From Pseudomonadota bacterium (GTDB lineage: Bacteria; Myxococcota_A; Polyangia; JAAYKL01): 64,000 bases of DNA. The notes below the pieces were generated by a model. It worked only from the letters and a program-made list of their open reading frames with translations. It was not told where the DNA came from and searched no databases. A program made the position numbers and the translations under genes. Location of the stretch: contig JALNZK010000002.1 of the NCBI GenBank assembly GCA_023229365.1, positions 62,343 through 126,342 of the forward strand, written 5' to 3'. Positions 1,510 through 24,793 of this stretch are shown piece after piece. Every line of letters starts with the position of its first letter. The stretch's first letter is position 1.

Positions 1510-1538
1510 ATTATACTCCAGAAATGCCAGAATGTAAC
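1510..1538 (-). promoter_or_regulatory. sigma70-like promoter (GTTACA-N17-TATAAT read on minus strand)
   Basis: Plus strand reads ATTATA-N17-TGTAAC, so the minus strand reads GTTACA-17nt-TATAAT. It lies about 30 nt upstream of the rtcB ATG and is one of seven near-identical motifs in the window. Confidence 0.6.
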
Positions 1539-1618
1539 CCCAAAAAACTGCAATTCTTGCTCTAATAAGGCATTAGATTGTTTTAAAATAAGGACAAGTC
1601 GCTGCATATCTATCAATC

Positions 1619-2275
1619 ATGCAATCATACCAAAACTGGAAAGCGAACGAACAGTTATTGACCGAAGCAGTCGAGCTTCTGGAGGCTGTTCGTGTCGATG
1701 TTGGCGAATTAGAAAAAATTCTCTCTAAGGCCCAGAGCGGCGATCCAGAAGCCAGTGAATATTGGCCAATTTTAGTAAAAGCTTTCTTGGAAGGCTATTT
1801 GAATAAATTTGGCTTCCAAGCTGGCTTAAACCATCAGGAAAAAGAAGAGGTTATGCAAAACGTCCTAATGCAACTCACTCGTAACCTTAGAGGCTCATTC
1901 GGCCAAGCAATGGAAATTGGAAGAAACACAAGAGGATGGTTGGTCACCATTTTGAAAAATGCCATTATAGATCGACAAAGAAAAACAATTAAAAACAAAA
2001 AAACCAAAAGTCTTACCTTAGACTTTGATGACGATCATCCAAAATCTTCGGAACCAAATCCACACGACGTTATGAGTCGCATGGAAACTGCGGAAAAAGT
2101 GCGAAGTGCCATCGCTTCTTTGGACCCAATCCATCAAGAGGTTTTGATAATGTTTTATCAAAATGGCATGAAGTATGATGATATAGCTCAGACGCTACAC
2201 ATTCCGCCAGGAACCGTCAAAAGTCGAATAGCTGCGGCTAAAGACAGATTGCGAAAAAAGATAGAAGAAATTTAA
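1619..2275 (+). CDS. RNA polymerase sigma factor, ECF/sigma-70 family
   Basis: The C-terminal sigma-70 region 4 helix-turn-helix is clear (EVLIMFYQNGMKYDDIAQTLHIPPGTVKSRIAAAKDRLRKK). A region-2-like segment lies in the middle. A GC hairpin sits downstream at about 2283-2310. Confidence 0.75.
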   Translation: MQSYQNWKANEQLLTEAVELLEAVRVDVGELEKILSKAQSGDPEASEYWPILVKAFLEGYLNKFGFQAGLNHQEKEEVMQNVLMQLTRNLRGSFGQAMEIGRNTRGWLVTILKNAIIDRQRKTIKNKKTKSLTLDFDDDHPKSSEPNPHDVMSRMETAEKVRSAIASLDPIHQEVLIMFYQNGMKYDDIAQTLHIPPGTVKSRIAAAKDRLRKKIEEI

Positions 2276-2521
2276 TGCAAGAGCCGCCCTTTTGGGACGG
2301 CTCTCGATCTGTCTCTACGCATGGCAGAGCAGGCTATTCGACTACAAGCAGCATTGCTTCGACAGAATCACCGAGAGGAATAAAAACAGCATCAAAACTC
2401 TCTGATGCCAGTGGTTCTGTCCATTTGTCGTCCTCAAAACCATTGCATTGAACGTCACGCATCACTTCTGCAAATTGATGAAGAGCGGCAGTAAATTCTT
2501 TGACTTTCATCTGGTAGTTTC

Positions 2522-3361
2522 CTAGTCCAAGAAAGCAACGTGTCGCATTGCTCTGGCTTTGGTTTCCTCATTCGGCAAAACTCGATACCAACCATCCAAG
2601 AGAACGGTTTTGTGGTCACTGTGGCGGATTTTGCCCCGCACATAAACCTCGGGGTCACGCACCATCGTTCTCCACAACACACCCTTGCGTTGATCCAGCG
2701 GCAGAGCAGCGTAAGCCTTTGCGGTAATTCCATTGGGGTGACTGCCATTGACATAAACGGTGGTGCCACCGATGCGATACAACTCCTCAGCCATGTGCGG
2801 CTTGCCACGTCCACGCTGCAAGGGTTCGTTTTTCAAAATGAGGCTTTTGTCTACCTTCAAGTTTTTGGCGGGCATAAAAAACCATTCACCTTGACGAATA
2901 TAAGCTTCGGTCTTGCGACGTTTCTTGTCCCTGGCCTTCATTTTCTTGGTCGATTGAGCCTGCAAAACCTGTGCGGGTTTCAGGGCCTCCATCGCTTGGG
3001 GGACACTCGACGCACCGGAGGTCTCGGGAATGGCAGCGGTGAACCAATCCCGCTCATCGTGACCACAGAGGAATTTGCTCTTCGTATCGTGGCCTTTGCC
3101 GTCGTCAATCTTCGTGAGCAGAAGCAGGTGGCGGTCCTTGGGACGAACATCCAGAACCTGCAATTCGACATCGTTCCCCACTTGGAGATCGAAGTAAGTA
3201 CCTTCTTTGTCCTTGCGAACATCGACTCTTACCGACTGATTGCGTGGCAATCCTGCGGTGAATCGCTGACCAGCCCGCAAGCGGGGGTCGTCGCCCAAAG
3301 TCGCAACCTTGACCCGTGCCCCCATCGCTTCAAATTTTTTGGATAATGCCGTAGTGTTCAT
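2522..3361 (-). CDS. hypothetical protein
   Basis: 279 aa ORF. Its ATG lies 6 nt downstream (in transcription sense) of the consensus -10 box at 3368-3373, so the transcript is probably leaderless. Confidence 0.5.
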   Translation of the reverse strand: MNTTALSKKFEAMGARVKVATLGDDPRLRAGQRFTAGLPRNQSVRVDVRKDKEGTYFDLQVGNDVELQVLDVRPKDRHLLLLTKIDDGKGHDTKSKFLCGHDERDWFTAAIPETSGASSVPQAMEALKPAQVLQAQSTKKMKARDKKRRKTEAYIRQGEWFFMPAKNLKVDKSLILKNEPLQRGRGKPHMAEELYRIGGTTVYVNGSHPNGITAKAYAALPLDQRKGVLWRTMVRDPEVYVRGKIRHSDHKTVLLDGWYRVLPNEETKARAMRHVAFLD

Positions 3362-3367
3362 GCCCTT

Positions 3368-3395
3368 ATTATACTCCAGATTCTTTGTTTGTAAA
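3368..3395 (-). promoter_or_regulatory. sigma70-like promoter (TTTACA-N16-TATAAT on minus strand)
   Basis: Plus strand reads ATTATACTCCAGATTCTTTGTTTGTAAA, immediately upstream of the 2522..3361 gene. Confidence 0.6.
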
Positions 3396-3398
3396 CCA

Positions 3399-3587
3399 TC
3401 ATTTCCAGAATTTCCAGACGGTTTTTAATTCCTCATCTGGGGATGCTTTCCACTCAGGAAGACTACATCCATGTTCTCGGCTAAAAGACAGATACAAACT
3501 CTCTTCCCTGCCGCAACGATGACACTGCTTTCTAGTAGGGCTCATCATAACCCAACTATGACCAATAAGTTTGCAAAATAATTTCAT
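3399..3587 (-). CDS. small zinc-finger protein (GHSW...CxRCG motif, DUF1660-like)
   Basis: 62 aa carrying LIGHSWV....CHRCGRE, which resembles the GHKW zinc-finger family found in prophages. Confidence 0.3.
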   Translation of the reverse strand: MKLFCKLIGHSWVMMSPTRKQCHRCGREESLYLSFSREHGCSLPEWKASPDEELKTVWKFWK

Positions 3588-3839
3588 TTAAGTAGGCGAA
3601 GCATAATCGTGAAATTTCTTCTGATCGGCTGGATTTATTCGAACCTCTTTGACCATCACTGTGTTTTTCAACAACATCGGCAAAGAACCATTTAATATCT
3701 CCAATGCCGTCAAAGCATCCAATTCTGTACCATACCAATTACCCTGCAATACCGTATCATCGTCATATGTGCTGGCATCTTGGCGGAACAATCCCCATTT
3801 AGTAGTACGATCAGCAACTGTAGGTGTTCGTTGTGTCAT
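3588..3839 (-). CDS. hypothetical protein
   Basis: 83 aa ORF co-directional with its neighbours. Confidence 0.3.
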   Translation of the reverse strand: MTQRTPTVADRTTKWGLFRQDASTYDDDTVLQGNWYGTELDALTALEILNGSLPMLLKNTVMVKEVRINPADQKKFHDYASPT

Positions 3840-4018
3840 ACATTATTTAGTTGTTGTAAAGCCAAAACTATTTTGTCAAAATCTAAAACAACAATATGCT
3901 TGGCTACTTTGCATTCCACACCTTCCTTAGTAATAGCTGTTACTACAGCCGGGTGTCCAGAAACCTCCAAAGTAGTACCAACACCAATCAACGGCGTTAC
4001 TGGCTCTTTGTCTTTCAT
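3836..4018 (-). CDS. hypothetical protein
   Basis: 60 aa ORF whose stop/start overlaps the neighbouring gene by 4 nt. Confidence 0.3.
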   Translation of the reverse strand: MKDKEPVTPLIGVGTTLEVSGHPAVVTAITKEGVECKVAKHIVVLDFDKIVLALQQLNNV

Positions 4019-4068
4019 GTTTTTAATATAGCAACTTTTATAAAAAAATGCAACTATGATAAAAAAGA

Positions 4069-5145
4069 ATGTACGATTATTTAATAGTGGGAAGTGGTTT
4101 GTTTGGAAGCACTTTTGCCAGAAAAGCCAAGGATGCAGGACAATCTGTGCTTGTAATCGAGAAAGAAAAACATGTTGGCGGGCATGTACGCACAGAAATT
4201 ATGGATGGAATCATAGTCTCACTATTCGGACCCCACATTTTTCACACCAAACACAAACATGTGTGGGATTTCGTCAACAAATTTAGTGAATTTAATCATT
4301 ATCGTCATCAAGTCAAAGCTAATTACAATGGAAAAATTATTTCTTTGCCATTTAATATGATGACATTCCACCAATTATGGGGGTGTATCACACCTGCTGA
4401 TGTTGAGGCTGAATTAGCAAAACGTCAAATTCCTATCGACAACCCACAAAATATGGAAGAATGGTGTTTAAGCCAATTGGGAGAGGAAATTTACCATACA
4501 TTAATATATCACTATACCAAAAAACAATGGAATCGTGATCCCAAGACACTTCCTGCCTCTATTATTAAAAGGCTGCCAATTCGTATGTCGTATGATGAAT
4601 CATACTTCGATGATCCCTATCAGGGCATGCCCATACATGGTTATACGCCACTAGTGGAAAAAATGTTAGATGGTATAGCCGTGCAGTTGGGAACTGATTT
4701 TAAAGAAATAAAAAATGATTGGAGGAAAATAGGAAAAAAACTTGTATACAGCGGAAAAATAGACGAATTCTTTGATTTTTGTTATGGAGAATTGGATTAT
4801 AGGACTATAGATTTCCAAACTACCGTTTTAGATGGCAATTTTCAAGGCGTAGCTCAAATGAATCACACTGGTGAATTACCAGTTTATACAAGAACCATAG
4901 AACACAAACATTTTTATTTTATAAATTCACCAAAAACAGTCATCACCTACGAGTTTTCGCAAGCCGCAACAAACACAAGTGCTCCAGATTATCCTGTGAT
5001 TGATGATAAAAATAAAAAAATATCTGGACTCTACAAGGCTATGCAAAGTCCAGATATTCTATTTGGAGGAAGATTGGGCACCCATAGTTATTTAAACATG
5101 GATGACTGCATTGATATGGCTTTAAGACTGTCCAGCTTCATATAA
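4069..5145 (+). CDS. glf: UDP-galactopyranose mutase
   Basis: The N-terminus MYDYLIVGSGLFGSTFARKAKDAGQSVLVIEKEKHVGGHVRTE is the typical Glf FAD-binding Rossmann start. The 358 aa length also fits Glf. Confidence 0.85.
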   Translation: MYDYLIVGSGLFGSTFARKAKDAGQSVLVIEKEKHVGGHVRTEIMDGIIVSLFGPHIFHTKHKHVWDFVNKFSEFNHYRHQVKANYNGKIISLPFNMMTFHQLWGCITPADVEAELAKRQIPIDNPQNMEEWCLSQLGEEIYHTLIYHYTKKQWNRDPKTLPASIIKRLPIRMSYDESYFDDPYQGMPIHGYTPLVEKMLDGIAVQLGTDFKEIKNDWRKIGKKLVYSGKIDEFFDFCYGELDYRTIDFQTTVLDGNFQGVAQMNHTGELPVYTRTIEHKHFYFINSPKTVITYEFSQAATNTSAPDYPVIDDKNKKISGLYKAMQSPDILFGGRLGTHSYLNMDDCIDMALRLSSFI

Positions 5146-5962: not shown

Positions 5963-5999
5963 AAAAAAAGGAGAGGCAATTTTGCCTCTCCTTTTTTTT
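5963..5999. terminator. bidirectional rho-independent terminator
   Basis: A perfect 9-bp stem (GGAGAGGCA / TGCCTCTCC) encloses a 4-nt loop. It is flanked by an A-run on one side and a T-run on the other. It lies just downstream of the minus-strand gene 6015..6344. Confidence 0.7.
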
Positions 6000-6014: not shown

Positions 6015-6344
6015 TTATTCATCGTCATCGTCTTCCCAATCCTCTTCGTCGTCGTCATCATCGTCATCGTCTTCCCAATCCTCTTCGTCGTCATCATCGT
6101 CATCGTCGTCTTCCCACTCCTCTTCATCGTCATCGTCGTCTAAATCGTCATATTCGTCGTCGTCATCGTCATCGTCGTCATCGAAATCCTCATCCTCATC
6201 ATCGAAATCCTCATCGTCATCTGCCATAGAGCAATTTGCTTGATTGGATTGGACTCGTTCCCACGCACAAGCAGCCACCCGTCGAACTTCTCGCCGGGCT
6301 TCTTCCGACAAGCCACTGTCGAATACTTTCAATCGAATACTCAT
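6015..6344 (-). CDS. hyper-acidic Asp/Glu-repeat protein (possible DNA mimic)
   Basis: 109 aa with a normal N-terminal 40 aa followed by about 65 aa of EEDWEDDDDDDDD repeats. An AAGGAG Shine-Dalgarno lies upstream and the terminator lies downstream. The plus-strand poly-Ser ORF 6007..6243 is its antisense shadow. Confidence 0.55.
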   Translation of the reverse strand: MSIRLKVFDSGLSEEARREVRRVAACAWERVQSNQANCSMADDDEDFDDEDEDFDDDDDDDDDEYDDLDDDDDEEEWEDDDDDDDDEEDWEDDDDDDDDEEDWEDDDDE

Positions 6345-7696: not shown

Positions 7697-8017
7697 TTAT
7701 CGAAAATCATCAGGTCCACTTGCCACAACTTCACCAAAATCACACTTGCGTTCCTGTGTCGGCTGTGTCGGCTCTGTGCGAAAACGCAAATAGGTTGTCA
7801 TGCCCTTGGTTTCCCTCACATCAACAAACCACCCAGCTTTCTCAAACTTCCTCACCACCCTTGTAAGCAATTTAGCATCCTGCAAATTGCTTATAGCCCT
7901 GTTTTCAGAGCCCGAAATCTTGATGAGACACTTTTGCTGCCGCAATTCCTTGTTAATTGCTTTAACAGCCTCTTTGACACCAAGCTTATGCACTCTTTGG
8001 GGGGTAGTTGCTTTCAT
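7697..8017 (-). CDS. hypothetical protein
   Basis: 106 aa ORF with a GGAGAAAT Shine-Dalgarno and a consensus promoter just upstream. Confidence 0.45.
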   Translation of the reverse strand: MKATTPQRVHKLGVKEAVKAINKELRQQKCLIKISGSENRAISNLQDAKLLTRVVRKFEKAGWFVDVRETKGMTTYLRFRTEPTQPTQERKCDFGEVVASGPDDFR

Positions 8018-8028: not shown

Positions 8029-8056
8029 GGCTGCTCCTATTATACTTCAGAAACAG
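8029..8056 (-). promoter_or_regulatory. sigma70-like promoter (TTTACA-N16-TATAAT on minus strand)
   Basis: Plus strand reads ATTATACTTCAGAAACAGAGGTTGTAAA. Confidence 0.6.
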
Positions 8057-8267
8057 AGGTTGTAAACTCTTTTCGTTTAAACCAATAAAAACCCCTGTGT
8101 TTTACCCAGCCGCCTACGGAAATGTAGAAGAAATACTTCCACAACATCGCAAGCCACCCAACCCCATAAATATAGGCAACCCACTCAGAATGGTTGCTGA
8201 ACATCAACAACAATGGCAGAATGATGAGAATAGTTAAAACAATCACAATCTGTAGCGTTGTTTTCAT
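8040..8267 (-). CDS. small membrane protein
   Basis: 75 aa with two hydrophobic helices. Its 3-prime end overlaps the promoter of the downstream gene. Confidence 0.35.
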   Translation of the reverse strand: MKTTLQIVIVLTILIILPLLLMFSNHSEWVAYIYGVGWLAMLWKYFFYISVGGWVKHRGFYWFKRKEFTTSVSEV

Positions 8268-8270
8268 AGG

Positions 8271-8341
8271 GTGGCCGACGAGAATCGAACTCGTATACCC
8301 GGATTCACAGTCCAGTTCCTAAGCCATTCGGACACGGCCAC
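8271..8341 (-). tRNA. tRNA-His (GTG)
   Basis: Cloverleaf readable on the minus strand: acceptor GTGGCCG/CGGCCAC, anticodon loop CTGTGAA, T-arm ACGAG-TTCGATT-CTCGT, discriminator C. The genome does not encode a G at position -1. Confidence 0.6.
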
Positions 8342-8343
8342 AG

Positions 8344-8416
8344 TGAGACCAGACGGACTTGAACCGTCACCTACTTCCTTAAGAGGGAAGAATGCTGCCG
8401 CTAACACCTTGGTCCC
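8344..8416 (-). tRNA. tRNA-Lys (CTT)
   Basis: Acceptor GGGACCA/TGGTCTC, anticodon stem CTTCC/GGAAG with loop CTCTTAA, T-arm GACGG-TTCAAGT-CCGTC. Confidence 0.6.
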
Positions 8417-8421
8417 AAAAA

Positions 8422-8703
8422 TCATTCAAAATCCACAATCTGACAACGACGATCAGAGTGATATTTTCCCAACACAACTTCCAACATTTCTTTATCAGAA
8501 AGAATTCCCTTGTCCGACAAAGTAGAAACTAAATTGCCGAGCACTTCGGCAAGTCTTTTGATCCTATCTTCGATTCCATTGTGCCTGTCGTAGAAGTCAT
8601 CCTTTCCTTCCATGACAAAATGCTCAACAAATTGTTCAACAGAAAATTCCTCAACAAATTCACCAGTGCTTGGGTGCGGAGTACCAAATCTTACTGTTTT
8701 CAC
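8422..8703 (-). CDS. hypothetical protein
   Basis: 93 aa ORF. Confidence 0.35.
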   Translation of the reverse strand: MKTVRFGTPHPSTGEFVEEFSVEQFVEHFVMEGKDDFYDRHNGIEDRIKRLAEVLGNLVSTLSDKGILSDKEMLEVVLGKYHSDRRCQIVDFE

Positions 8704-8918
8704 GATTCACCTCCTCCAAATAACGCTTCCAAATCTTCAGCGTCAATCACTCGCTGTCCATCGCTCAGTTGATAGACTTTCAGCTTCACGCCACCTAAAT
8801 CCAAAACGCCTCTGTGTGTGGCGAATGGAACTTCACCATCCAATTCTGGCGGTTCGGCAGGAAGAGACTCCCACTCCACCCCATCCAACAAAATTTGTAT
8901 TGGAGATTTGGATTCCAT
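8700..8918 (-). CDS. hypothetical protein
   Basis: 72 aa ORF with a consensus promoter 9 nt upstream. Confidence 0.4.
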   Translation of the reverse strand: MESKSPIQILLDGVEWESLPAEPPELDGEVPFATHRGVLDLGGVKLKVYQLSDGQRVIDAEDLEALFGGGES

Positions 8919-8927
8919 ATTGCCCTC

Positions 8928-8955
8928 ATTATACTTCAGAAATTGACGTTGTAAA
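8928..8955 (-). promoter_or_regulatory. sigma70-like promoter (TTTACA-N16-TATAAT on minus strand)
   Basis: Plus strand reads ATTATACTTCAGAAATTGACGTTGTAAA. Confidence 0.6.
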
Positions 8956-9207
8956 CCAATTCATTACCACGGCTTTCATTTGATCGCCAAACTCTTCAAT
9001 AGCTGCCTCAACCTCCCTGAAATCATCCCCTTCCTGCCACAAAACATCAGAACACTCCATCATCCCCTTCGGACTAAAATCAAACAAACGCTCAACAACT
9101 TCAAGTTTCTGCTCTCTTGTTAGTTGCATCTCATCCTCCACAACCACAAGGACTAAAATCCATATTTCGTTCTTTGGATAATTTATCAATACTTCCGTCT
9201 TCTGCAC
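8929..9207 (-). CDS. hypothetical protein
   Basis: 92 aa ORF. Confidence 0.3.
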   Translation of the reverse strand: MQKTEVLINYPKNEIWILVLVVVEDEMQLTREQKLEVVERLFDFSPKGMMECSDVLWQEGDDFREVEAAIEEFGDQMKAVVMNWFTTSISEV

Positions 9208-9400
9208 ATGTTTTACAAATTACCACATGTTCTTGACCATCGTGATATAATCGACAACCAACAAATATTCCGCACGACTCACAAGGAAATCCATCTCTGG
9301 CTTCGTTGGCTAAATTCCAATTACTCATTTTACATGTCCCCAATTTGCTATAGCAAGTGATTCTGTCCAGCGTCCAAACAGTGGATGCTCCCAAAACCAC
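9131..9400 (-). CDS. Cys-rich zinc-ribbon protein
   Basis: 89 aa with CESCG...CKTC...CGCGG cysteine pairs. Confidence 0.3.
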   Translation of the reverse strand: MVLGASTVWTLDRITCYSKLGTCKMSNWNLANEARDGFPCESCGIFVGCRLYHDGQEHVVICKTCAEDGSIDKLSKERNMDFSPCGCGG

Positions 9401-9525
9401 TCGTTATTCACCAATGGCGGATTTAATATCCTTTTCCATCCATTGGCCCTCAACTTTGCACGCCTTTGCCAACTATCTGTCAGCATTTCAGCAACTTCTG
9501 TCAGTGCTTTTTCACCAATAGTCAT
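9325..9525 (-). CDS. hypothetical protein
   Basis: 66 aa ORF. Confidence 0.3.
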   Translation of the reverse strand: MTIGEKALTEVAEMLTDSWQRRAKLRANGWKRILNPPLVNNEWFWEHPLFGRWTESLAIANWGHVK

Positions 9526-9539
9526 GATTATTCTCCAGG

Positions 9540-9611
9540 GTGACTAACGGGAGTCGAACCCGCTAAAACCTGATCCACAGTCAGGCCCCTAACCGTTCGG
9601 GATTAGCCACC
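9540..9611 (-). tRNA. tRNA-His (GTG)
   Basis: The extra 5-prime G(-1) is encoded and pairs with discriminator C. Acceptor GTGGCTA/TAGTCAC, anticodon stem CCTGA/TCAGG with loop CTGTGGA. Confidence 0.6.
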
Positions 9612-10065: not shown

Positions 10066-10071
10066 TCGCAG

Positions 10072-10302: not shown

Positions 10303-10308
10303 AATTCA

Positions 10309-10813: not shown

Positions 10814-10814
10814 T

Positions 10815-13703: not shown

Positions 13704-13996
13704 GTCATGTTCATATATATGAGTATAGCTTGAAATTTTTTTCTGTCAATCCCTATTTTTCGGATTTTTTTCGGCGTAAACCAAAAATGGCTCCGAGTCG
13801 CCTTGCCACTATTCCCGCTCCAATGGAGACATTAGCTTATCGGGGTTTGCTGTCGCCGTTTCTCGGAGGTTGCCAGCTTGCTCTTCCATTAAATTTGTCA
13901 ATCAACAACCCTTCTGATTCCGAAGAATCCGCACATGGTTAAGAGGCGTGCCGTGCGTAGCAAAACCCTCATATTGTTGATTGACAAATTGACAAA

Positions 13997-15366: not shown

Positions 15367-15463
15367 GGTCTACTCCTTTTAAGAGTGCAAAAGAACCACT
15401 GACCGTGCCCTCTTCTGCCTAGATGATGTTATTAAACCGCATCCGGTCAGTGGCTCCTGTTAC

Positions 15464-15491
15464 ATTATACTCCAGAAACTTGCCTTGTAAA
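15464..15491 (-). promoter_or_regulatory. sigma70-like promoter (TTTACA-N16-TATAAT on minus strand)
   Basis: Plus strand reads ATTATACTCCAGAAACTTGCCTTGTAAA. It sits directly downstream (in transcription sense) of the terminator hairpin at 15493-15528. Confidence 0.6.
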
Positions 15492-15492
15492 C

Positions 15493-15528
15493 CAAAAAAA
15501 AATGCCGGATTTTATGGATAATCCGGCA
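15493..15528 (-). terminator. rho-independent terminator
   Basis: Stem GCCGGATT/AATCCGGC with the following A9 run on the plus strand, which is a U-run on the minus transcript. It ends the long 3-prime UTR of gene 15843..16397. Confidence 0.6.
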
Positions 15529-15530
15529 AA

Positions 15531-15842: not shown

Positions 15843-16397
15843 CTATGCGGCTCCCACAGGAAGGAGCCGGTTCACACATGATTTGTTTCTGCAAATTAGG
15901 AAAATTGCACCAATGCCAAGCAGAACGATAGTAGATGGTTCGGGACAATCCGTGGCAACATCAATTCCAGTGACACCAGCCCACGAAAACGAGTTGGGGA
16001 ATTGAATAATCTCTGCACCCGACTGGGGTGTGATAATCCACTCCCAGACATAAGTATTAGCAAAATGAACAGAATCACTACCCGTAACAGTAAATCCTTG
16101 AGGCACCCACACAATAGGATCGACTACATTGGAATCACTCTGCCACTCTACTTGCAACCACAAATGCTTTACTCTGTCCAACTGTTCGTTATTCGGAATA
16201 AAAAGCCACTTATCTTGGTTGGAAGGAATTGTAAACCACTCGGGCATTCCATAACCAGGATCAGTAATTTTTGTCCACGTCCACATCGATCCATTCAATT
16301 CGCCATGATATTGATAATCAACGACAGCAGGAATGATATCAGCAGACGCACAATTGCAGATCGACATTGCCAGCAAAATCAATAATGTTCGTTTCAT
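15843..16397 (-). CDS. secreted protein with PEP-CTERM-like sorting tail
   Basis: Start reassigned to MKRTLLILLAMSICNCASA (signal peptide), because the residues upstream of it are translated from the promoter. The C-terminus DCPEPSTIVLLGIGAIFLICRNK is PEP motif, then transmembrane helix, then basic residues. Confidence 0.5.
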   Translation of the reverse strand: MKRTLLILLAMSICNCASADIIPAVVDYQYHGELNGSMWTWTKITDPGYGMPEWFTIPSNQDKWLFIPNNEQLDRVKHLWLQVEWQSDSNVVDPIVWVPQGFTVTGSDSVHFANTYVWEWIITPQSGAEIIQFPNSFSWAGVTGIDVATDCPEPSTIVLLGIGAIFLICRNKSCVNRLLPVGAA

Positions 16398-16403
16398 GTT
16401 CCC

Positions 16404-16432
16404 ATTATACTTCAGAATCAATCAAGTGTAAA
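16404..16432 (-). promoter_or_regulatory. sigma70-like promoter (TTTACA-N17-TATAAT), leaderless arrangement
   Basis: Plus strand reads ATTATACTTCAGAATCAATCAAGTGTAAA. The -10 box ends 6 nt from the ATG at 16397. Confidence 0.55.
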
Positions 16433-17102
16433 CCACCGTTTTCAGAATTTTAATCAGCTTTTCCATATCCACATCTGCGGGCAACGAACGATATTCCACC
16501 CGCCCATCGTGCTTGATCTCGTAGAAACCCGGTCGTCGCTTAGCTTCTTTGATTTCTTCGGCAAATGCAGCATCCAACTTCAAGAAAATTTGTGGCCAAT
16601 CAAAATTGACGTTGTAGATACGTTCTTTGCAATGTCCGCATGACTCACAAGCATCTTCTGTAAAACTGGTCTCTTGGGTGAAGCTGACATGTACGCCCGC
16701 TGTGCCTTCCAGCATTGCATTTTTGTGTGTTTCGTATCCATAAAAGTTTTGATACTTCACCAACGGCTTAGTGAAATATCTTGCGGATTGCAACCTTACG
16801 GTCTTAGGAACCTTCATGATTGGCACATCTGACAATCTGAATGGTAATCCAGCAAAGAAGGTTTCGGCGTTAATTTCTGCCAGCGTCTGCTCAATCTTGT
16901 AAATTTCTGCCTTTAAGCTAAACACGGCATCAACAGGGTTGCTAAAAGGTTCGCCCCTTGCTTCAACCAACCAGCCGCAATCATCGTGTGGTAAACGAAG
17001 TAAGGAATGCCCGCCAGTCCCGGTCGGATTTACAGCAGCCAGAGAAACAGGCTCGCCGTCTTTTGTTAAAAGAAAAAATTCTTTTTCTAAACCAATTCTC
17101 AT
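16422..17102 (-). CDS. hypothetical protein, possible carboxylate-amine ligase (GCS2-like)
   Basis: The N-terminus MRIGLEKEFFLL resembles the G(I/V)E.EF start of glutamate-cysteine-ligase family 2 and amidoligase enzymes. This is a weak call. Confidence 0.3.
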   Translation of the reverse strand: MRIGLEKEFFLLTKDGEPVSLAAVNPTGTGGHSLLRLPHDDCGWLVEARGEPFSNPVDAVFSLKAEIYKIEQTLAEINAETFFAGLPFRLSDVPIMKVPKTVRLQSARYFTKPLVKYQNFYGYETHKNAMLEGTAGVHVSFTQETSFTEDACESCGHCKERIYNVNFDWPQIFLKLDAAFAEEIKEAKRRPGFYEIKHDGRVEYRSLPADVDMEKLIKILKTVVYT

Positions 17103-17134: not shown

Positions 17135-17839
17135 TCAGCCCTGCAATGCAATACCAAACTTCTCTCGCATCAACAGCTTTGCTTTTTGAAGCAATTGATG
17201 GATATACGGACTTGATACCCCCAATTGCTTGGCAATCTCTTTCAGTGTTTTTCTTTCAATATAATGTTCGTGAAGAATTTGTTTTGCTCTTGTTGTAAAA
17301 AATGTATCGCCAGAATGCATGGTGAACAATTCATCTACCAAGTCTGCGTTTGAAGACCGTGGATCAACAATTTGCATTTCAGTGAAGTCTACCAACTCTT
17401 CATGATATTTTATTTTTCTTTGTTTATATCCATCAAGAATGGCATTTCGCATACAGCGAATAGCATAACTAGACCATGTGCATTCATGTTGCTGGGCTAA
17501 GTCTGGTGTCCAGCTTTCCACGGCTCTCCACAAGCCCATCAAAGCATCGGAATATTCTTCGCTATTTTCTACATCTTCATTAGACTTGAGAAAAGTTAAA
17601 GCCGAAGAGCGAGCCAGCTTCAAATTGGCCTCGACGGTTGGCTTGACGAACCTTAGCTCTTGTGTGCTTTGGTCGTCTTGCAGTCCCGATGTAGAAATAG
17701 GGGACGGAAGAGTGAACGATTTTTTCTTCAAAGCAATTGTCATAAAGCCCTCGCAGACCAAAGTGTTTTTGCACTTCGGACCAACTTGCTTACACGACAA
17801 GCACTTCGGACCAACCTGCGTTGATGATTTAATAGACAT
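17135..17839 (-). CDS. sigma-70 family sigma factor (second copy)
   Basis: C-terminal region 4.2 helix-turn-helix (TLKEIAKQLGVSSPYIHQLLQKAKLLMREKF) and a region-2-like segment (ALMGLWRAVESW...YAIRCMRNAILDGYKQRK). Confidence 0.55.
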   Translation of the reverse strand: MSIKSSTQVGPKCLSCKQVGPKCKNTLVCEGFMTIALKKKSFTLPSPISTSGLQDDQSTQELRFVKPTVEANLKLARSSALTFLKSNEDVENSEEYSDALMGLWRAVESWTPDLAQQHECTWSSYAIRCMRNAILDGYKQRKIKYHEELVDFTEMQIVDPRSSNADLVDELFTMHSGDTFFTTRAKQILHEHYIERKTLKEIAKQLGVSSPYIHQLLQKAKLLMREKFGIALQG

Positions 17840-20037
17840 TACAACAAATTCTTCAAGGTGTCAACATCAATGATGGGAATTCCTAACGCCGTTGCCTCAG
17901 CCGACTTATCACCACTACCATCTCCAGCCACCAGATATTTTACTTTTTTGGATACACTTCCAGCACACTTGCCACCCAATTCTTCGATCTTTGCTTTCCA
18001 GAATGTTTTACCTTGCGGCAAACTACCACTGAGGCAGAAGGTCACGCCTGTTAGTTTTCCGATTTTGGGAAGTTGCAAGTCAAAATGTTGCAGCAGCCGG
18101 TTGATTTCTTGCGAATGCAATTGCAGGTAAGAATAAATGATTTCGGCTGTCTTTTTACCAACCCCATCCGTGCCCTCAAGTTCATTAACGCTAGCTGCCT
18201 GTATCTTGTCAATACCCCGAAAGTGAGAAATTAAAGATTTTCCCGAATCCTCCCCTGCTGTGGGAATACCCAGGGCAGCAAAGAACTTCCAGGCATCCAC
18301 CTTCTTGGGGGTTTTAATTGCTGCTGTTATTTGTGTCGCAAGCTCTTTATCATCAATATGTTCGGGATCGTGAATCATATGAATGGCAGCCACGGTCAAC
18401 AGTGATTCTCGCTCCGAAAGCCCTGCCGCCATGCAATCTGCGGCGGAAAGAGAATAAAAATCGGCTCTGGTGGTAATTTTACCACTGGACATGAGCATTT
18501 CAACAGTTGCCTCTCCCAATCCCAGGCAACCCAAGACCTTAAACCAATGACAATAATTGCTCAATTGCTTCGCTGGACAGTCGGAATTCTCACATCGAAG
18601 TTCCCACATTTCCTCCCTATTACCTTTGGCGGGGGTGTGAATACTGGCCGTAGGCTTGCCACACGATGGGCAAGTTTTGGGATAGGTTGGGTCACACGAA
18701 TTAGATTTGACACCCACCACCTTGGGGATAATGTTCCCGGCTTTTTGGACAAGTATTTCTGTGCCCAGGCCAATTTTCTTACGAATCATAAATCCGAGAT
18801 TATGGAGCGTGGCACGGGCTACATTCGTGTCGGCCAAGCGAATGGGAGCAAAAATAGCAACGGGTTTAATGACCCCAGTGCGACCCACATTCCACTCAAT
18901 GGCTTTAATGATTGCAGGCTCACGTTCCTCAGCGAATTTCCAAGCAATCTTGCCCCGTGGATTACCATCGGGTTTATCACCGTGGGTGCCCAAGTGACTC
19001 TGTTCATCCAAGCTTTCTACACCAATCACAATCCCGTCAACCCGATAATCCAGAGAGGGGACTTCTGCCTCCATCTTTGCCAAATCAAAGAAATTAAAGC
19101 TTCTGCTTTGCACAAATCGAATGCATGGCTCATTCGGATGTGCTGAATCGTAGCCCAGATTTTTATTGACCCAAATAGCCTTTTCGGTTTCGGTACTGTA
19201 AGGAATAGGGGAACTATCATTCCACGTAATCCCATGAGCAATGCAAGTTACCAAATGATATTTGGTTTTCTCGGGATCATTGAATTGTCGGATACCACCG
19301 ACTGCCGCTGATCGTTGGTTAGAAAATTCTTTTTCCCCCTGTTGTCGCTTCCAATCTTGAACCTTGGGGAAATCGGAAGTCAAAACAATCAATTCACCCC
19401 GAATGGCACATGTGATCGGAACTTTGAGCTTTGTGGGAATGCCCTTCACATATTTGGCTTGCTCTGTGACATCTTCCCCATATTCTCCATCCCGTGGACG
19501 CAAACCAGCCGAAACCAATTCCCCCTTCTCATAATAGAATTGAATAGAAACTCCATCCAATTTCCATTGCTGATAAAAATAGCCACGGGGATAAGTTACG
19601 TTGCTGCCCTTGTATTTCTCTCCATCCAGAACATAAAACTTGCCTTCCCGAACCGACTTGGGGGCTTTCTCTGTGCAATCTGAAATCCACTTCCAAAGTT
19701 GTGCTTTTTGGATTTCCAAATCCTCATGGCTTGCTTTGTCGATGGAGGTCAGCAATGGGACGTGTTTTACCTTCTTTGTGGAAATTACCCGCTTTGAAGC
19801 CGTAACAGTTTTGAAGATTTTGGAGTCAGAACGATTAGCCTGGAGGGTGCCCTTGAGCATATCGTATTTTGGGTCGGATACGGGGGTTGCAGCATCCAAC
19901 CCCAAGAGTTTCAACATATCATCCGATGTATCGGCGGGGATTAGGCAATCTTCGCCGTCATCAAATCGAGTATCCAACTCAGCAATAATGGCTTCCAACT
20001 CATCGCACTGACTGGCATTCAATTTCGGGTAATTCAT
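17839..20037 (-). CDS. ligA: NAD-dependent DNA ligase LigA
   Basis: 732 aa with the ATLHN OB-fold motif, a Cys4 zinc finger (CPSCG...CENSDCPAK), helix-hairpin-helix repeats and a C-terminal BRCT domain (FCLSGSLPQGKTFWKAKIEELGGK). Confidence 0.85.
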   Translation of the reverse strand: MNYPKLNASQCDELEAIIAELDTRFDDGEDCLIPADTSDDMLKLLGLDAATPVSDPKYDMLKGTLQANRSDSKIFKTVTASKRVISTKKVKHVPLLTSIDKASHEDLEIQKAQLWKWISDCTEKAPKSVREGKFYVLDGEKYKGSNVTYPRGYFYQQWKLDGVSIQFYYEKGELVSAGLRPRDGEYGEDVTEQAKYVKGIPTKLKVPITCAIRGELIVLTSDFPKVQDWKRQQGEKEFSNQRSAAVGGIRQFNDPEKTKYHLVTCIAHGITWNDSSPIPYSTETEKAIWVNKNLGYDSAHPNEPCIRFVQSRSFNFFDLAKMEAEVPSLDYRVDGIVIGVESLDEQSHLGTHGDKPDGNPRGKIAWKFAEEREPAIIKAIEWNVGRTGVIKPVAIFAPIRLADTNVARATLHNLGFMIRKKIGLGTEILVQKAGNIIPKVVGVKSNSCDPTYPKTCPSCGKPTASIHTPAKGNREEMWELRCENSDCPAKQLSNYCHWFKVLGCLGLGEATVEMLMSSGKITTRADFYSLSAADCMAAGLSERESLLTVAAIHMIHDPEHIDDKELATQITAAIKTPKKVDAWKFFAALGIPTAGEDSGKSLISHFRGIDKIQAASVNELEGTDGVGKKTAEIIYSYLQLHSQEINRLLQHFDLQLPKIGKLTGVTFCLSGSLPQGKTFWKAKIEELGGKCAGSVSKKVKYLVAGDGSGDKSAEATALGIPIIDVDTLKNLL

Positions 20038-22739: not shown

Positions 22740-23536
22740 TCGTCTGTCCCCGGCTCAATTGCTAAAGTAAGTCCCACAATCTCTTTTACGGACTCTTTCC
22801 ATTTAACAACCTTGCGATCCTGCAAGGCTTCATAAATTTCCCATATTTTATCATCGGTCTGTCCAGCCTCAATACGGGCGACCTGCCGCTCGTCTTCCTC
22901 TGTTTCAATGATTACTCTCTGTCTGACTTTGTTCATCTTCCCGATCCAAATGCTATCGGTGACAAACAACTCCAACGTGTTGAATAATTCAACCATATTG
23001 GGAGCATCCAACATGGGCTCACAACTTACGCTTGTTTTGAACCCAGCTACAAATGCGTATTTCAGGGCAGCCATACGCTCAAAGAAATTCGGGGCTCCTG
23101 GTTCCCAATATTTTAGGATTGCATCGTCAAATGCCCCAATAGTAAATCGGAAAAGAATGTGATCCTTATACTCTTCAAACTCATGGCAAAGTCGTTTAAT
23201 GCACTCCAAATGAGGCTTGGACACAATGAGAATATCGTTGCCAGCTTCCAGAAGTTTTCGCAACACAATGACGCAAGGCTCAATCATTTCTGGAACAATG
23301 TCATGCGTGGTGGGGAACATCACTGTTCCATCTTCTTTTTTTCGATTCTTTTTGACATCATGCTCTCGGACTTCCGGCTTAGTCCAATCCTCGGGAGTGT
23401 TGATTTGCTTGAACCGCATAGCTCGGGAGCGTGCGTAGCAATAGCGGCAATTGTGGCTACAGCCTTTGATGCAATTCACATTTGCCACTGCCCACTCCAA
23501 GGTGCCACTAATTTTTTTTGGCTTGCTTGACATCAT
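22736..23536 (-). CDS. radical SAM protein (SplB/DNA-photolyase-like Cx3CxYC type)
   Basis: CSHNCRYCYA matches the C-x3-C-x-Y-C cluster motif of spore-photoproduct-lyase-like radical SAM enzymes. Confidence 0.5.
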   Translation of the reverse strand: MMSSKPKKISGTLEWAVANVNCIKGCSHNCRYCYARSRAMRFKQINTPEDWTKPEVREHDVKKNRKKEDGTVMFPTTHDIVPEMIEPCVIVLRKLLEAGNDILIVSKPHLECIKRLCHEFEEYKDHILFRFTIGAFDDAILKYWEPGAPNFFERMAALKYAFVAGFKTSVSCEPMLDAPNMVELFNTLELFVTDSIWIGKMNKVRQRVIIETEEDERQVARIEAGQTDDKIWEIYEALQDRKVVKWKESVKEIVGLTLAIEPGTDE

Positions 23537-23729
23537 TTGCTTCCTTCATTGCTCTGCCATTTGGACAAATACAAAAAAACTCACCGCCCGCAGGAAAACC
23601 CGCTGGTGAGGTTACTTTTCCCACAGTATCGATACGACCTGTGTTGCCACACAATCCGCATAAATTATTTTGCCCTATAAATTCATCAAACCACAAATCC
23701 GTCAGAAACTTCTTCTGCTTGGGTGTCAT
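23508..23729 (-). CDS. zinc-ribbon protein
   Basis: 73 aa with CGLCGNTG...CICPNG. Confidence 0.3.
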   Translation of the reverse strand: MTPKQKKFLTDLWFDEFIGQNNLCGLCGNTGRIDTVGKVTSPAGFPAGGEFFCICPNGRAMKEANDVKQAKKN

Positions 23730-24081
23730 TTTGTTCCTCGTCTTCGGCCAACTTCTCCAACGCTATATCTTCTGCTGTGTGAATCTTATCAATAATTTTG
23801 ATAAATTCAAACTCACCATTGGCATGCTCTTCCCAAATATTCCAAACTATTTGGAATTTATTTTCATCTTCCAGATCATCCACAGCATCATTGAATGCTT
23901 TGATAAATTCTGGCATATAGGACCAATCCAAATCATCTTGATACCACTCTGCCATATAGGCTAGAGCTTGCTTTCGAGCCGTCGCCTTATCCTTGCACAA
24001 GATCAAATCAACATTGCTTTGCAGAGCAATAATACATGGACACTGACCTACTGGTGCAGTTTGCTCACCCACGTTCATCAT
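23686..24081 (-). CDS. hypothetical acidic protein
   Basis: 131 aa ORF. Confidence 0.35.
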   Translation of the reverse strand: MMNVGEQTAPVGQCPCIIALQSNVDLILCKDKATARKQALAYMAEWYQDDLDWSYMPEFIKAFNDAVDDLEDENKFQIVWNIWEEHANGEFEFIKIIDKIHTAEDIALEKLAEDEEQNDTQAEEVSDGFVV

Positions 24082-24760
24082 CTTCTCCTTTTCTCAACAA
24101 TCCAAACCCAGATCGGGTGGACATTATGGATTCAATTTCATCAAGGGAAAAAGGTCGATATTCACCCAGAAGTTTGAATGCATTGTCTATGCCCACATCC
24201 ATTGAAAATCGACCGGGCATAATGGAATCAAGCCAAGCCTCAGCACGGGCATGAGAATGTCCGTATAGGTTTCTTGCTCCGTGGTGGCGACGATCCCAAA
24301 TCGCATAAGCATAATGGGACGCTACATAATTTTTGTCCCCAATTCTCAAAGACAACATATCGGCATGCGTTCGAAAATACCCGGACGCATCAATTGCCTC
24401 TCTGCCCGCAGAAAATTGCTTAGGATCATGGTTTCCCCAAACCAAAACAACATTGCGACATTTAATCTGCTTTCTGTAATAGATGAAAGCACCAGCTATT
24501 CGGTGGGGGTCGCCACGCACCCAACAGAAGTCTCCCACATGAATAAGTCGATCCTTTTCCCCCACCACAGAGTTAATGTGGTCAAGCATTCCCCGATCCA
24601 TTCGGCTAATGCTTTCTTGGCTTATCCTCAACTGGGATATAGCTTTATGATCGCCGCTTGCCATAACAGCCCGTTCGGAATCTGTCATGAATTGCAGCCG
24701 GTGGCAATATTTCAGAATATTGCCGTGTCCAAAATGAGTATCTGCTGTGAAATAGTCCAT
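24065..24760 (-). CDS. calcineurin-like metallophosphoesterase
   Basis: Carries the DTHFGH, VGDFCW and WGNHD motifs (D-x-H, GD, GNHD). A consensus promoter lies 6 nt upstream of the ATG. Confidence 0.8.
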   Translation of the reverse strand: MDYFTADTHFGHGNILKYCHRLQFMTDSERAVMASGDHKAISQLRISQESISRMDRGMLDHINSVVGEKDRLIHVGDFCWVRGDPHRIAGAFIYYRKQIKCRNVVLVWGNHDPKQFSAGREAIDASGYFRTHADMLSLRIGDKNYVASHYAYAIWDRRHHGARNLYGHSHARAEAWLDSIMPGRFSMDVGIDNAFKLLGEYRPFSLDEIESIMSTRSGFGLLRKGEDDERG

Positions 24761-24765
24761 GCCCC

Positions 24766-24793
24766 TATTATACTTCAGAAGGGATTTTTGTAA
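24766..24793 (-). promoter_or_regulatory. sigma70-like promoter (TTTACA-N16-TATAAT), leaderless arrangement
   Basis: Plus strand reads ATTATACTTCAGAAGGGATTTTTGTAAA. Coordinates are within about 2 nt. Confidence 0.55.

What the first reader, a model, noticed from the sequence alone, without database searches (positions are those of the whole stretch)
1510..24793. Seven copies of a near-perfect TTTACA-N16/17-TATAAT promoter, restricted to the first 25 kb
On the plus strand the motif reads CATTATACTYCAGAA-N9-TGTAAACC. On the minus (sense) strand that is GGTTTACA-N16/17-TATAAT. It occurs upstream of minus-strand genes at about 1510, 3368, 8029, 8928, 15464, 16404 and 24766, and none occurs after 25 kb. 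This suggests a temporally distinct promoter class in this module, recognised by host sigma-70 or by one of the two phage sigma factors. The extended conservation is shown by YCAGAA between the boxes.
Basis: seen in the sequence. Interest (0 to 1): 0.6.

Follow-up and report, generated by a model that had tools for sequence, protein, structure and literature searches.

The report
Repeated strong promoter in huge phage
A huge uncultivated phage carries at least nine nearly identical copies of a bacterial-type promoter in front of RNA-repair, tRNA/tmRNA, sigma-factor and small early-looking genes. This is a real but fairly ordinary kind of phage promoter family, with two unusual details: an extra conserved block between the two boxes, and three genes that start exactly where transcription should start.

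Summary
On the minus strand the motif is GGTTTACAA-N7/8-TTCTGRAG-TATAAT-RRG, with a purine 7 nt after the -10 box. It occurs 7 times in the window, with TATAAT at 1510, 3368, 8039 (not 8029), 8928, 15464, 16404 and 24767. Chance expectation is about 0.03. A weight-matrix scan gives these sites 38-43 bits and nothing else above the shuffle maximum of 15, so the class is discrete.

"None after 25 kb" holds inside the window only. The same contig has an eighth copy about 4.5 kb left of the window and a ninth about 6.7 kb right of it, and the ninth drives a phage tmRNA.

All copies point into downstream genes, and several units end at intrinsic terminators. Three copies have TATAAT-N6-ATG, which predicts leaderless mRNAs. 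The motif, the extra TTCTGGAG block and the N6-ATG spacing recur at orthologous sites in a relative with 59-67% protein identity. In that relative the motif is again absent from the replication/translation module.

Best reading: strong promoters for the host primary-sigma RNA polymerase, probably early, launching a cascade that includes the two phage sigma genes. A phage sigma as reader is not excluded. This is a new member of a known kind and of moderate interest.

The parts
1503..1540 (-). Promoter copy 1: GGGTTACA (-35 variant), 17-nt spacer ending TTCTGGAG, TATAAT 1510-1515, predicted +1 at 1503. It drives RtcB (74-1480) through a 29-nt leader with a GGAGG Shine-Dalgarno.
   Evidence: RtcB
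3361..3397 (-). Promoter copy 2: GGTTTACA-N16 (ending ATCTGGAG)-TATAAT (3368-3373)-AAGGGC-ATG. The predicted +1 is the A of the ATG at 3361, so the mRNA would be leaderless.
   Evidence: An in-frame TAA lies 2 codons upstream of the ATG. Homologues start at the same Met.
8032..8068 (-). Promoter copy 3: AGTTTACA-N16-TATAAT (8039-8044). A 21-nt leader with GGGAG precedes ORF 7697-8017. The unit of six ORFs ends at the bidirectional terminator 5963-5998.
8921..8957 (-). Promoter copy 4: GGTTTACA-N16-TATAAT (8928-8933)-N9-ATG, giving a predicted leader of only about 3 nt. It drives ORFs 8700-8918 and 8422-8703, then tRNA-Lys and tRNA-His (8343-8416, 8269-8341). The -10 box contains the stop codon of the upstream ORF 8929-9147.
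15457..15493 (-). Promoter copy 5: GGTTTACA-N16-TATAAT (15464-15469), immediately after terminator 15503-15528. A 97-nt structured leader precedes ORF 14629-15366.
16397..16434 (-). Promoter copy 6: GGTTTACA-N17-TATAAT (16404-16409)-GGGAAC-ATG. The predicted +1 is the A of the ATG at 16397, so the mRNA would be leaderless. The -35/spacer overlaps the stop codon of ORF 16422-17102.
24760..24796 (-). Promoter copy 7: GGTTTACA-N16-TATAAT (24767-24772)-AGGGGC-ATG. The predicted +1 is the A of the ATG at 24760, so the mRNA would be leaderless. It heads a tightly packed run of about 8 kb of genes down to 16422. That run includes NAD-dependent DNA ligase (17839-20037) and sigma gene 17135-17839.
2522..3361 (-). 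Leaderless-type gene 1: a 279-aa conserved protein of unknown function. The unit ends at terminator 2278-2306.
15843..16397 (-). Leaderless-type gene 2: a 184-aa secreted protein with a signal peptide and a PEP-CTERM motif. The unit ends at terminator 15503-15528.
24065..24760 (-). Leaderless-type gene 3: a 231-aa metallophosphoesterase. Its N-terminus MDYFTADTHFGH begins the catalytic motif.
2278..2306 (-). Intrinsic terminator closing the unit started at copy 2.
15503..15528 (-). Intrinsic terminator (stem followed by T9) closing the unit started at copy 6. It abuts copy 5.
5963..5998 (.). Bidirectional terminator hairpin closing the unit started at copy 3.
1619..2275 (+). Phage sigma factor 1, ECF-like (region 2 motif WLVTILKNAIIDRQR), divergent from copy 1. 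It has no copy of the motif upstream in this phage.
17135..17839 (-). Phage sigma factor 2, group-3-like (region 2 motif YAIRCMRNAIL). It lies inside the gene run headed by copy 7.
13722..13749 (-). Generic sigma-70-like promoter (TTGACA-N16-TATACT) in front of the tRNA array. It lacks the TTCTGRAG block and serves as a comparison, not a member of the class.
45259..45287 (-). Generic sigma-70-like promoter with a canonical extended -10 (TTGACA-N17 ending TGT-CATAAT) in the replication/translation module. The orthologous intergenic region in relative L253 has TTGACA-N16 ending TG-TATATT. It is a comparison, not a member of the class.

Best explanation
The copies are a discrete family of very strong sigma-70-type promoters in an uncultivated huge phage (contig 340 kb; host probably Planctomycetota).

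Proposed mechanism:
- The host RNA polymerase carrying its primary sigma binds GGTTTACA at -35 and TATAAT at -10, 16-17 bp apart.
- It is helped by a G-rich discriminator and by an additional conserved block, TTCTGRAG, at about -20 to -13. The partner of that block is unknown. It could be sigma region 3, the beta-prime zipper of this host's enzyme, or a regulator.
- Transcription starts at the purine 7 nt after the -10.
- At three copies that purine is the A of the start codon, so those mRNAs are leaderless.
- The units end at intrinsic terminators or run on as operons.

Because no phage protein is needed, these would be early promoters. They switch on RNA repair (RtcB and phosphoesterases), tRNAs, tmRNA, DNA ligase, small host-takeover-type ORFs and the phage sigma factor(s), which would then direct later classes.

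Shown: the sequence anatomy, copy number, orientation, terminators and conservation in relatives. Inferred: which holoenzyme reads them, the start sites, the timing and the host.
For: - **Fit to the group-1 consensus.** TATAAT is 6/6 in all nine copies. The -35 is TTTACA in 8 of 9 (5/6 to TTGACA). Spacing is 16 in seven copies and 17 in two.
- **Discreteness.** The nine sites score 38-43 bits and nothing else exceeds the shuffle maximum of 15.1.
- **Position.** All nine lie upstream of, and co-oriented with, a gene or RNA. One lies about 112 nt upstream of a tmRNA that scores 119.6 bits in Rfam.
- **Terminators.** Promoter-to-terminator units are seen.
- **Start-site signature.** The 7th base after the -10 is A in 7 copies and G in 2, mostly preceded by a pyrimidine. 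In three copies it is the A of a well-supported ATG.
- **Selection rather than recent duplication.** The 7-8 nt between the blocks are unrelated among copies.
- **Conservation in close relatives.** A 97%-identical strain differs in the variable spacer and discriminator but keeps both blocks and N6-ATG. A relative with 59-67% protein identity keeps GGCTTTACA...TTCTGGAG/TTTGGAC-TATACT at the orthologous 279-aa and RtcB sites, plus a third site, and keeps N6-ATG.
- **Conservation of the distribution.** That same relative's replication/translation module lacks the motif.
- **Unrelated phage.** A 97-kb IMG/VR phage contig with no detectable protein similarity to the window's genes in the 24 kb fetched from it has two independent copies, one with TATAAT-N6-ATG. 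This points to a shared host polymerase rather than a lineage-specific phage factor.
- **Phage sigmas.** They are ECF-like and group-3-like, and established knowledge of those types says they do not read TTGACA/TATAAT. One sigma gene lies in the run headed by copy 7. In relative L039 the ECF-like sigma gene is preceded by CTGAAGTATAAT-N10-ATG. This is what a cascade from host sigma to phage sigma predicts.
- **Precedents.** T4 early promoters have excellent sigma-70 elements plus extra consensus regions (PMC2988021). Jumbo phage PA5oct has 32 conserved TTGAC/TATAATA promoters and relies on the host polymerase (PMC7318152).
Against: - No transcript data exist, so start sites, timing and the reading holoenzyme are all inferred.
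- The family is unusually uniform for host-sigma promoters. There are no intermediate-scoring sites. That is the pattern expected of a dedicated factor.
- The conserved TG in TTCTGRAG sits at -17/-16, not at the canonical extended -10 position -15/-14 (one search reports 'TG before second: no'). Other promoters in the same phage do carry a canonical TGn. The block is therefore not explained by known sigma-70 contacts.
- The group-3-like phage sigma could in principle read an ATA-containing -10.
- The host is inferred only from the nearest named homologues of RtcB and the 279-aa protein, which are Pirellulales/Planctomycetota MAGs at 50-59% identity. IF3 gave no host signal.
- No consensus for Planctomycetota promoters was found in the literature searched.
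Confidence: 0.58

Rival explanations
1. The motif is a phage-specific (middle) promoter class read by host core polymerase carrying one of the phage sigma factors. The most plausible candidate is the group-3-like sigma at 17135-17839. On this reading GGTTTACA and (C)TGRAGTATAAT are its extended -35 and -10 elements.
For: - The class is all-or-none: 38-43 bits against no more than 15 for everything else.
- Conservation extends beyond the hexamers.
- Generic sigma-70-like promoters of different make-up (TTGACA with canonical TGn) coexist in the same genome.
- The distribution is module-specific and that is conserved in a relative.
- Both carriers of the motif family encode sigma orthologues.
Against: - Sigma 1619 is ECF-like. 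The motif lacks the AAC -35 core and CGT-type -10, and the TCTGA block is only 9-10 nt from the -35-like block, which is too short for an ECF promoter.
- A sigma gene itself sits behind a copy in the window and in L039. That would require autoregulation plus another, unseen start-up promoter.
- A 97-kb phage contig with no detected protein similarity carries the same motif.
- The -10 is a perfect primary-sigma hexamer in 9 of 9 copies.
Confidence: 0.22
2. The sites are host-sigma promoters whose TTCTGRAG block is an operator for a phage- or host-encoded DNA-binding protein. That protein would shut off or boost the whole class together, so the extra conservation reflects regulation rather than polymerase contact.
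For: - The block is invariant in 12 of 13 positions across nine copies while the neighbouring 7-8 nt are free.
- It is kept in relatives.
- It is not at the position of any known sigma-70 contact.
- T4 early shut-off is still unexplained, which shows such factors are plausible (PMC2988021).
Against: - The block has no dyad symmetry (direct reading of the sequence).
- No candidate regulator was identified.
- A similar block (TTTGGAG or TTCTGRAG directly before TATAAT) occurs in phages that share no detectable proteins with this one in the fetched regions. A common host polymerase feature explains that more easily.
Confidence: 0.12
3. The copies are a promoter cassette spread and homogenised by duplication or gene conversion. 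The shared bases outside the hexamers are then hitch-hiking and have no function of their own.
For: - Phage regulatory cassettes are known to be mobile (own knowledge, not checked in the literature here).
- In IMG/VR contig 3300021963_000042 the whole promoter plus leader is repeated as a block.
Against: - In this phage the distal spacer and both flanks are unrelated between copies. This is not the pattern of copied cassettes.
- The same block survives at orthologous sites at 59-67% protein identity, where neutral intergenic sequence is unalignable.
Confidence: 0.05
4. The sites are not promoters at all but some other repeated DNA site, for example for replication, packaging or partition.
For: The only support is that they are repeated, strand-biased sites.
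Against: - Every copy is upstream of, and co-oriented with, a gene or RNA.
- The match to -35/-10 geometry is perfect.
- The distance to the ATG is fixed at 7 nt in three copies here, and the same spacing is seen in three other sequences (L007, L162, L003).
- Terminators immediately precede or close the units.
Confidence: 0.03

Closest known systems
Bacteriophage T4 early promoters (Pe)
   Same: Both are many near-identical copies of a promoter with excellent host sigma-70 -35/-10 elements plus additional consensus positions. They sit in front of non-structural, host-takeover and tRNA genes (PMC2988021). From my own memory, not verified here, the T4 -35 consensus is GTTTAC-like, which resembles GGTTTACA.
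   Different: T4 Pe carry a canonical TGn and A/T-rich UP elements. Here the TG is at -17/-16 and no consistent UP element is seen. T4 Pe transcripts have leaders, whereas three of these would be leaderless. The host is unrelated.
Conserved host-type promoters of jumbo phage PA5oct (Pseudomonas)
   Same: PA5oct is a jumbo phage without its own polymerase. It has 32 highly conserved TTGAC / TATAATA intergenic promoters around mapped start sites, and it also carries phage sigma-like factors (PMC7318152).
   Different: Those start sites were mapped by RNA-seq, while here nothing is mapped. No conserved spacer block or leaderless arrangement is reported in the passages read.
Lambda PRM-cI and other leaderless phage genes
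   Same: The -10 box is followed by 6 nt and then ATG, so that +1 is the A of the start codon (own knowledge of lambda PRM). The geometry at 3368, 16404 and 24767 is identical.
   Different: PRM is a weak, activator-dependent promoter of a lysogeny gene. These are near-consensus promoters of lytic-type genes.
Phage sigma cascades (for example Bacillus phage SPO1 gp28, gp33/34)
   Same: Host primary sigma reads the early promoters. Early genes include phage sigma factors that redirect the core enzyme to later classes (own knowledge). Here one sigma gene lies behind copy 7, and another lies behind a copy in relative L039.
   Different: No later promoter class could be found in the 80 kb examined. 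The cascade is an inference.

Membership tests
Primary (group 1) sigma-70-type promoter | -10 hexamer close to TATAAT with A at position 2 and T at position 6 | tested here: met
   TATAAT is 6/6 in all nine copies. It is TATACT in relative L007.
Primary (group 1) sigma-70-type promoter | -35 hexamer close to TTGACA | tested here: met
   TTTACA in 8 of 9 copies and GTTACA in one.
Primary (group 1) sigma-70-type promoter | Spacer of 17 +/- 1 bp | tested here: met
   16 bp in seven copies and 17 bp in two.
Primary (group 1) sigma-70-type promoter | Upstream of and co-oriented with a transcription unit | tested here: met
   All nine copies qualify. Terminators close several units.
Primary (group 1) sigma-70-type promoter | Transcript 5' end 6-8 nt downstream of the -10, and dependence on primary-sigma holoenzyme | not testable with these tools
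   No transcriptome or biochemistry is available. Indirect support only: a purine at the 7th base in 9 of 9 copies, which is the ATG in 3.
T4-like 'uber' early promoters (UP/-35/TGn/-10) | Extended -10 TGn at -15/-14 | tested here: not met
   One search reports 'TG_before_second: no' for all copies. The conserved TG lies at -17/-16.
T4-like 'uber' early promoters (UP/-35/TGn/-10) | A/T-rich UP element at -40 to -60 | tested here: inconclusive
   T-runs precede copies 1510 and 15464, but no column upstream of -38 is conserved.
T4-like 'uber' early promoters (UP/-35/TGn/-10) | Active immediately after infection without phage protein synthesis | not testable with these tools
   Requires infection experiments.
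ECF (group 4) sigma-dependent promoter | -35 with an AAC core and a CGT/TCTGA-type -10 about 16-17 bp downstream | tested here: not met
   The -35-like block is GGTTTACA, with no AAC. TCTGR starts only 9-10 nt after it.
ECF (group 4) sigma-dependent promoter | Autoregulation: the promoter lies upstream of the ECF sigma gene itself | tested here: inconclusive
   No copy lies upstream of sigma 1619-2275 in the window. In relative L039 the orthologue is preceded by CTGAAGTATAAT-N10-ATG.
Leaderless mRNA genes | -10 box ends 6-7 nt before an AUG start codon, with no room for a Shine-Dalgarno | tested here: met
   TATAAT-N6-ATG at 3368, 16404 and 24767. The arrangement is kept in L162, L007 and L003. 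The start codons are supported by homologue N-termini, a signal peptide and the catalytic motif.
Leaderless mRNA genes | Mapped 5' end at the A of AUG | not testable with these tools
   Needs 5'-end mapping.

The most novel reading that the evidence does not exclude
TTCTGRAG at about -20 to -13, together with GG before the -35, is a previously undescribed promoter element. It would be read by the RNA polymerase of a poorly studied host lineage (probably Planctomycetota) or by a dedicated phage factor. The phage would couple this class to leaderless early mRNAs, whose translation is later turned down by its own IF3 and bS21. IF3 is known to discriminate against leaderless mRNAs in E. coli (own knowledge). 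The result would be a combined transcriptional and translational timing switch.
Probability: 0.12. Interest if true: 0.65.

Novelty: new member of a known kind. Interest (0 to 1): 0.36.

Why it matters
Huge phages known only from metagenomes have almost no defined regulatory signals. This family gives a concrete, testable set of start sites. It defines transcription units for RNA-repair, tRNA, tmRNA and sigma-factor genes. It also suggests the order of a sigma cascade.

If the host is a planctomycete, these would be among the best-defined candidate strong promoters for that phylum and could be useful as genetic parts. They also flag an unexplained conserved spacer block and leaderless phage genes, in a phage that encodes IF3 and bS21.

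Tried and rejected
- **Megablast against 50,697 phage records.** The first 25 kb gave no match. The nearest DnaE-like polymerase is 42% identical, in a 595-kb uncultured phage.
- **GTDB genome scan with the motif.** It returned 63 loci, essentially all singletons at about the chance level. The source MAG is not in that collection. Four hits in a Metamycoplasmataceae MAG are one unrelated repeat.
- **PVC-lineage singletons.** Those in Pirellulales, Thermoguttaceae and Victivallis lie in AT-rich intergenic islands. I keep them only as a lead.
- **First IMG/VR scan.** Only three singletons.
- **More distant homologues of the 279-aa gene.** About 40 loci in other huge phages and MAGs carry ordinary Shine-Dalgarno leaders and no motif.
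- **Search for a second conserved promoter class.** K-mer enrichment in 124 upstream regions found nothing.
- **ECF-type reading of TCTGA.** Rejected on spacing.
- **IF3 homologues.** No host signal.
- **Literature.** No defined Planctomycetota promoter consensus or start-site maps were found.
- **The 29.6-kb contig of the 97% strain.** No DNA was available for it.
- **Rfam on the structured leader and the hairpin array near 15.4-15.9 kb.** Only sub-threshold hits.

Full report
**Observation**

Searching the minus strand for TTTACA-N16/17-TATAAT gives six matches against 0.03 expected. The core 13-mer TCTGRAGTATAAT gives seven exact matches, all on the minus strand. The TATAAT boxes start at 1510, 3368, 8039, 8928, 15464, 16404 and 24767, and there is no other exact copy in the 64 kb.

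The copy at 1510 has GTTACA rather than TTTACA. The plus-strand string as literally written fits only two sites, because the variable gap is one base longer in most copies.

Aligned, the consensus is GGTTTACAA-N7/8-TTCTGRAG-TATAAT-RRG, with a purine at the 7th base after the -10. A two-block weight matrix scores the sites at 38-43 bits. Nothing else in 80.7 kb exceeds the maximum of 20 shuffles, 15.1 bits. The class is therefore discrete and far beyond chance.

**What the window is**

The window encodes:
- RtcB, NAD-dependent DNA ligase and a DnaE-like polymerase;
- several radical-SAM enzymes;
- two sigma-70-family proteins;
- 15 tRNAs;
- IF3, ribosomal protein bS21, peptide deformylase and DnaJ.

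The 279-aa protein at 2522-3361 is identical to a protein on a 340,072-bp contig of an NCBI MAG labelled 'Proteobacteria bacterium'. The polymerase's best phage match is a 595-kb uncultured phage at 42% identity. Homologues of the 279-aa protein occur in other 260-527 kb viral contigs. I take the element to be a huge phage, although no virion genes lie in the stretch I could read.

The nearest named homologues of RtcB (57-59%) are almost all Pirellulales/Planctomycetota. Those of the 279-aa protein are also Planctomycetota. The host is therefore probably a planctomycete, but this is inference. IF3 gave no host signal.

**Distribution**

I joined flanks from the same ENA contig (L004 and L012) to the window to give 80.7 kb. 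This stretch holds nine exact copies. The two extra copies are at window-equivalent -4481 and 70709.

The copy at 70709 lies about 112 nt upstream of a phage tmRNA. That tmRNA scores 119.6 bits in Rfam and has the tag ANDYVALAA. Its unit ends at a strong terminator.

So 'none after 25 kb' is true only of the window. Even so, about 46 kb of tightly packed replication, nucleotide-metabolism and translation genes (25-70 kb) have no copy.

**Anatomy of the units**

Every copy is upstream of and co-oriented with a gene or RNA.
- Copy 3368 leads to the 279-aa gene and then terminator 2278-2306.
- Copy 16404 leads to a PEP-CTERM secreted protein and then terminator 15503-15528, which abuts copy 15464.
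- Copy 8039 leads to six small ORFs and then the bidirectional terminator 5963-5998.
- Copy 8928 precedes two ORFs and two tRNAs.
- Copy 1510 drives RtcB.
- Copy 24767 heads a gap-free run of about 8 kb that includes the DNA ligase and the sigma gene 17135-17839.

At 3368, 16404 and 24767 the sequence is TATAAT-N6-ATG, so the expected start base is the A of the start codon. These ATGs are well supported:
- An in-frame TAA lies two codons upstream of 3361, and most homologues begin at the same Met.
- The 16397 product begins with a signal peptide.
- The 24760 product begins with the metallophosphoesterase motif.

The 7th base after the -10 is a purine in 9 of 9 copies.

**Comparative evidence**

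A 97%-identical strain (L162) differs in the variable spacer and discriminator. It keeps GGTTTACA, TTCTGGAG-TATAAT and N6-ATG.

A relative from JGI 3300048647 (L007) is 67% identical on the 279-aa protein and 59% on RtcB. It has GGCTTTACA-N16-TATACT-N6-ATG before the 279-aa orthologue. It has GGCTTTACA...TTCTGGAG-TATACT before RtcB. It also has a third TTCTGGAG-TATACT copy. A 20.5-kb contig from the same sample (L253) is syntenic with window ~32-50 kb and has none. The module-specific distribution is therefore conserved.

A third relative (L039, 62%) has CTGAAGTATAAT-N10-ATG in front of the orthologue of the ECF-like sigma. More distant homologues of the 279-aa gene have ordinary Shine-Dalgarno leaders and no motif.

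A degenerate scan of IMG/VR found two further carriers:
- A 97-kb contig has two independent copies, one of them TATAAT-AGAGGA-ATG. In the 24 kb fetched from it, none of this region's 124 proteins finds a credible match.
- A 127-kb contig has at least four copies of TTTACAATAATTCAGG-TTTGGAG-TATAAT.

A GTDB genome scan gave only chance-level singletons.

**Which polymerase**

The hexamers, the spacing and the start position fit a primary sigma. Sigma 1619-2275 is ECF-like: its best PDB match is SigE at 8e-11, and its region 2 reads WLVTILKNAIIDRQR. The motif has neither an AAC -35 nor ECF spacing.

The phage also has generic promoters with a canonical extended -10. One example is TTGACA-N17 ending TGT-CATAAT at 45287, with an orthologous TTGACA-N16 ending TG-TATATT in L253. 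The host enzyme therefore appears to read canonical signals. That leaves the TTCTGRAG block, whose TG is at -17/-16, unexplained by known contacts.

Two things favour the host primary sigma:
- One unrelated phage contig (the 97-kb one) shares the block, and a second (the 127-kb one) carries the variant TTTGGAG.
- Phage sigma genes sit behind copies of the motif.

The all-or-none uniformity keeps a dedicated phage factor alive as a rival.

**Comparison with what is known**

T4 early promoters are described as having excellent sigma-70 elements plus additional consensus regions (PMC2988021). Jumbo phage PA5oct has 32 conserved TTGAC/TATAATA promoters and uses the host polymerase (PMC7318152). 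The TATAAT-N6-ATG geometry is that of lambda PRM-cI (own knowledge). Planctomycetes are reported to have few Shine-Dalgarno genes and a leaderless/RPS1-type signal (PMC5397173).

**Verdict**

The finding is real and its core interpretation is sound. It is a new member of a known kind: a phage family of strong host-type promoters. Two details are worth an experiment, namely the conserved spacer block and the leaderless starts. Interest is moderate.

Noticed in passing
L012 2652-2998 (window-equivalent ~70245-70591, outside the window): A phage-encoded tmRNA (Rfam 119.6 bits, tag peptide ANDYVALAA). It is preceded by the ninth promoter copy, and followed by two ORFs and a strong terminator.
   Followed up: partly
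window 40304-40825, 46326-46550, 45573-46106, 37731-38732: The phage encodes translation initiation factor IF3 (TIGR00168, 170.6 bits), ribosomal protein bS21, peptide deformylase and DnaJ. IF3 and bS21 alongside leaderless phage genes suggest phage control of translation initiation.
   Followed up: partly
window 15495-15850, minus strand: The 3' region of the PEP-CTERM gene holds an array of short hairpins, each followed by AGAGGTTT. Examples are CAGGTGTCACCACAACACCTGG and CAGGTGTCTCCACAACATCTGG. Upstream are CTTAAAAGGGGG-type units. Tandem Repeats Finder gives period 29 x2, and Rfam gives only a sub-threshold anti-hemB hit (28.3 bits). Unexplained.
   Followed up: partly
window 15367-15457, minus strand: The leader of promoter copy 5 folds into a 66-nt hairpin (-33 kcal/mol, z = -3.6) followed by UUCUUUUG. 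It contains a 7-codon mini-ORF (MRFNNII). It may be an attenuator or a small RNA ahead of ORF 14629-15366.
   Followed up: partly
window 8269-13703, minus strand: An array of 15 tRNA genes (His x2, Lys x4, Trp x2, Cys, Gln x3, Ile, Met x2) interleaved with small ORFs. TTGACA-N16-TATACT lies just upstream of the first tRNA-Met (13722-13749).
   Followed up: partly
window 3836-4084, and left flank at about -4000 to -3900: Further leaderless-type starts occur at divergent gene pairs. These are TATATT-N6-ATG (ORF 3836-4018), TATGAT-N8-ATG (UDP-galactopyranose mutase, 4069-5145) and a divergent pair with TATAAT-N7-ATG on both strands left of the window.
   Followed up: no
window 56781, 37240, 28583 (start codons): A TATAAT-like hexamer ends only 1 nt before the called ATG of the DNA polymerase gene and two other genes (TAGAAT-T-ATG, TATAAT-T-ATG, TATAAT-C-ATG). 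The starts may be mis-called, or this may be an A/T-rich initiation context.
   Followed up: no
window 6015-6344: There is a 39-nt in-frame insertion relative to the otherwise near-identical ENA contig k141_1665208 (109 aa versus 96 aa).
   Followed up: no
window 3399-3587, 10998-11181, 48847-49082: Uncalled small ORFs rich in CxxC pairs (zinc-ribbon-like) sit in stretches that the gene caller left as intergenic.
   Followed up: no
L118 2639-2667, L135 6883-6910, L148 (GTDB loci): Single TTTACA/ATTACA-N-TTTCTGRAG-TATAAT matches lie in AT-rich intergenic islands of high-GC Pirellulales, Thermoguttaceae and Victivallis MAGs. The Thermoguttaceae one is upstream of a PilT-like ATPase. They could be native promoters of the host lineage or chance matches.
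   Followed up: partly
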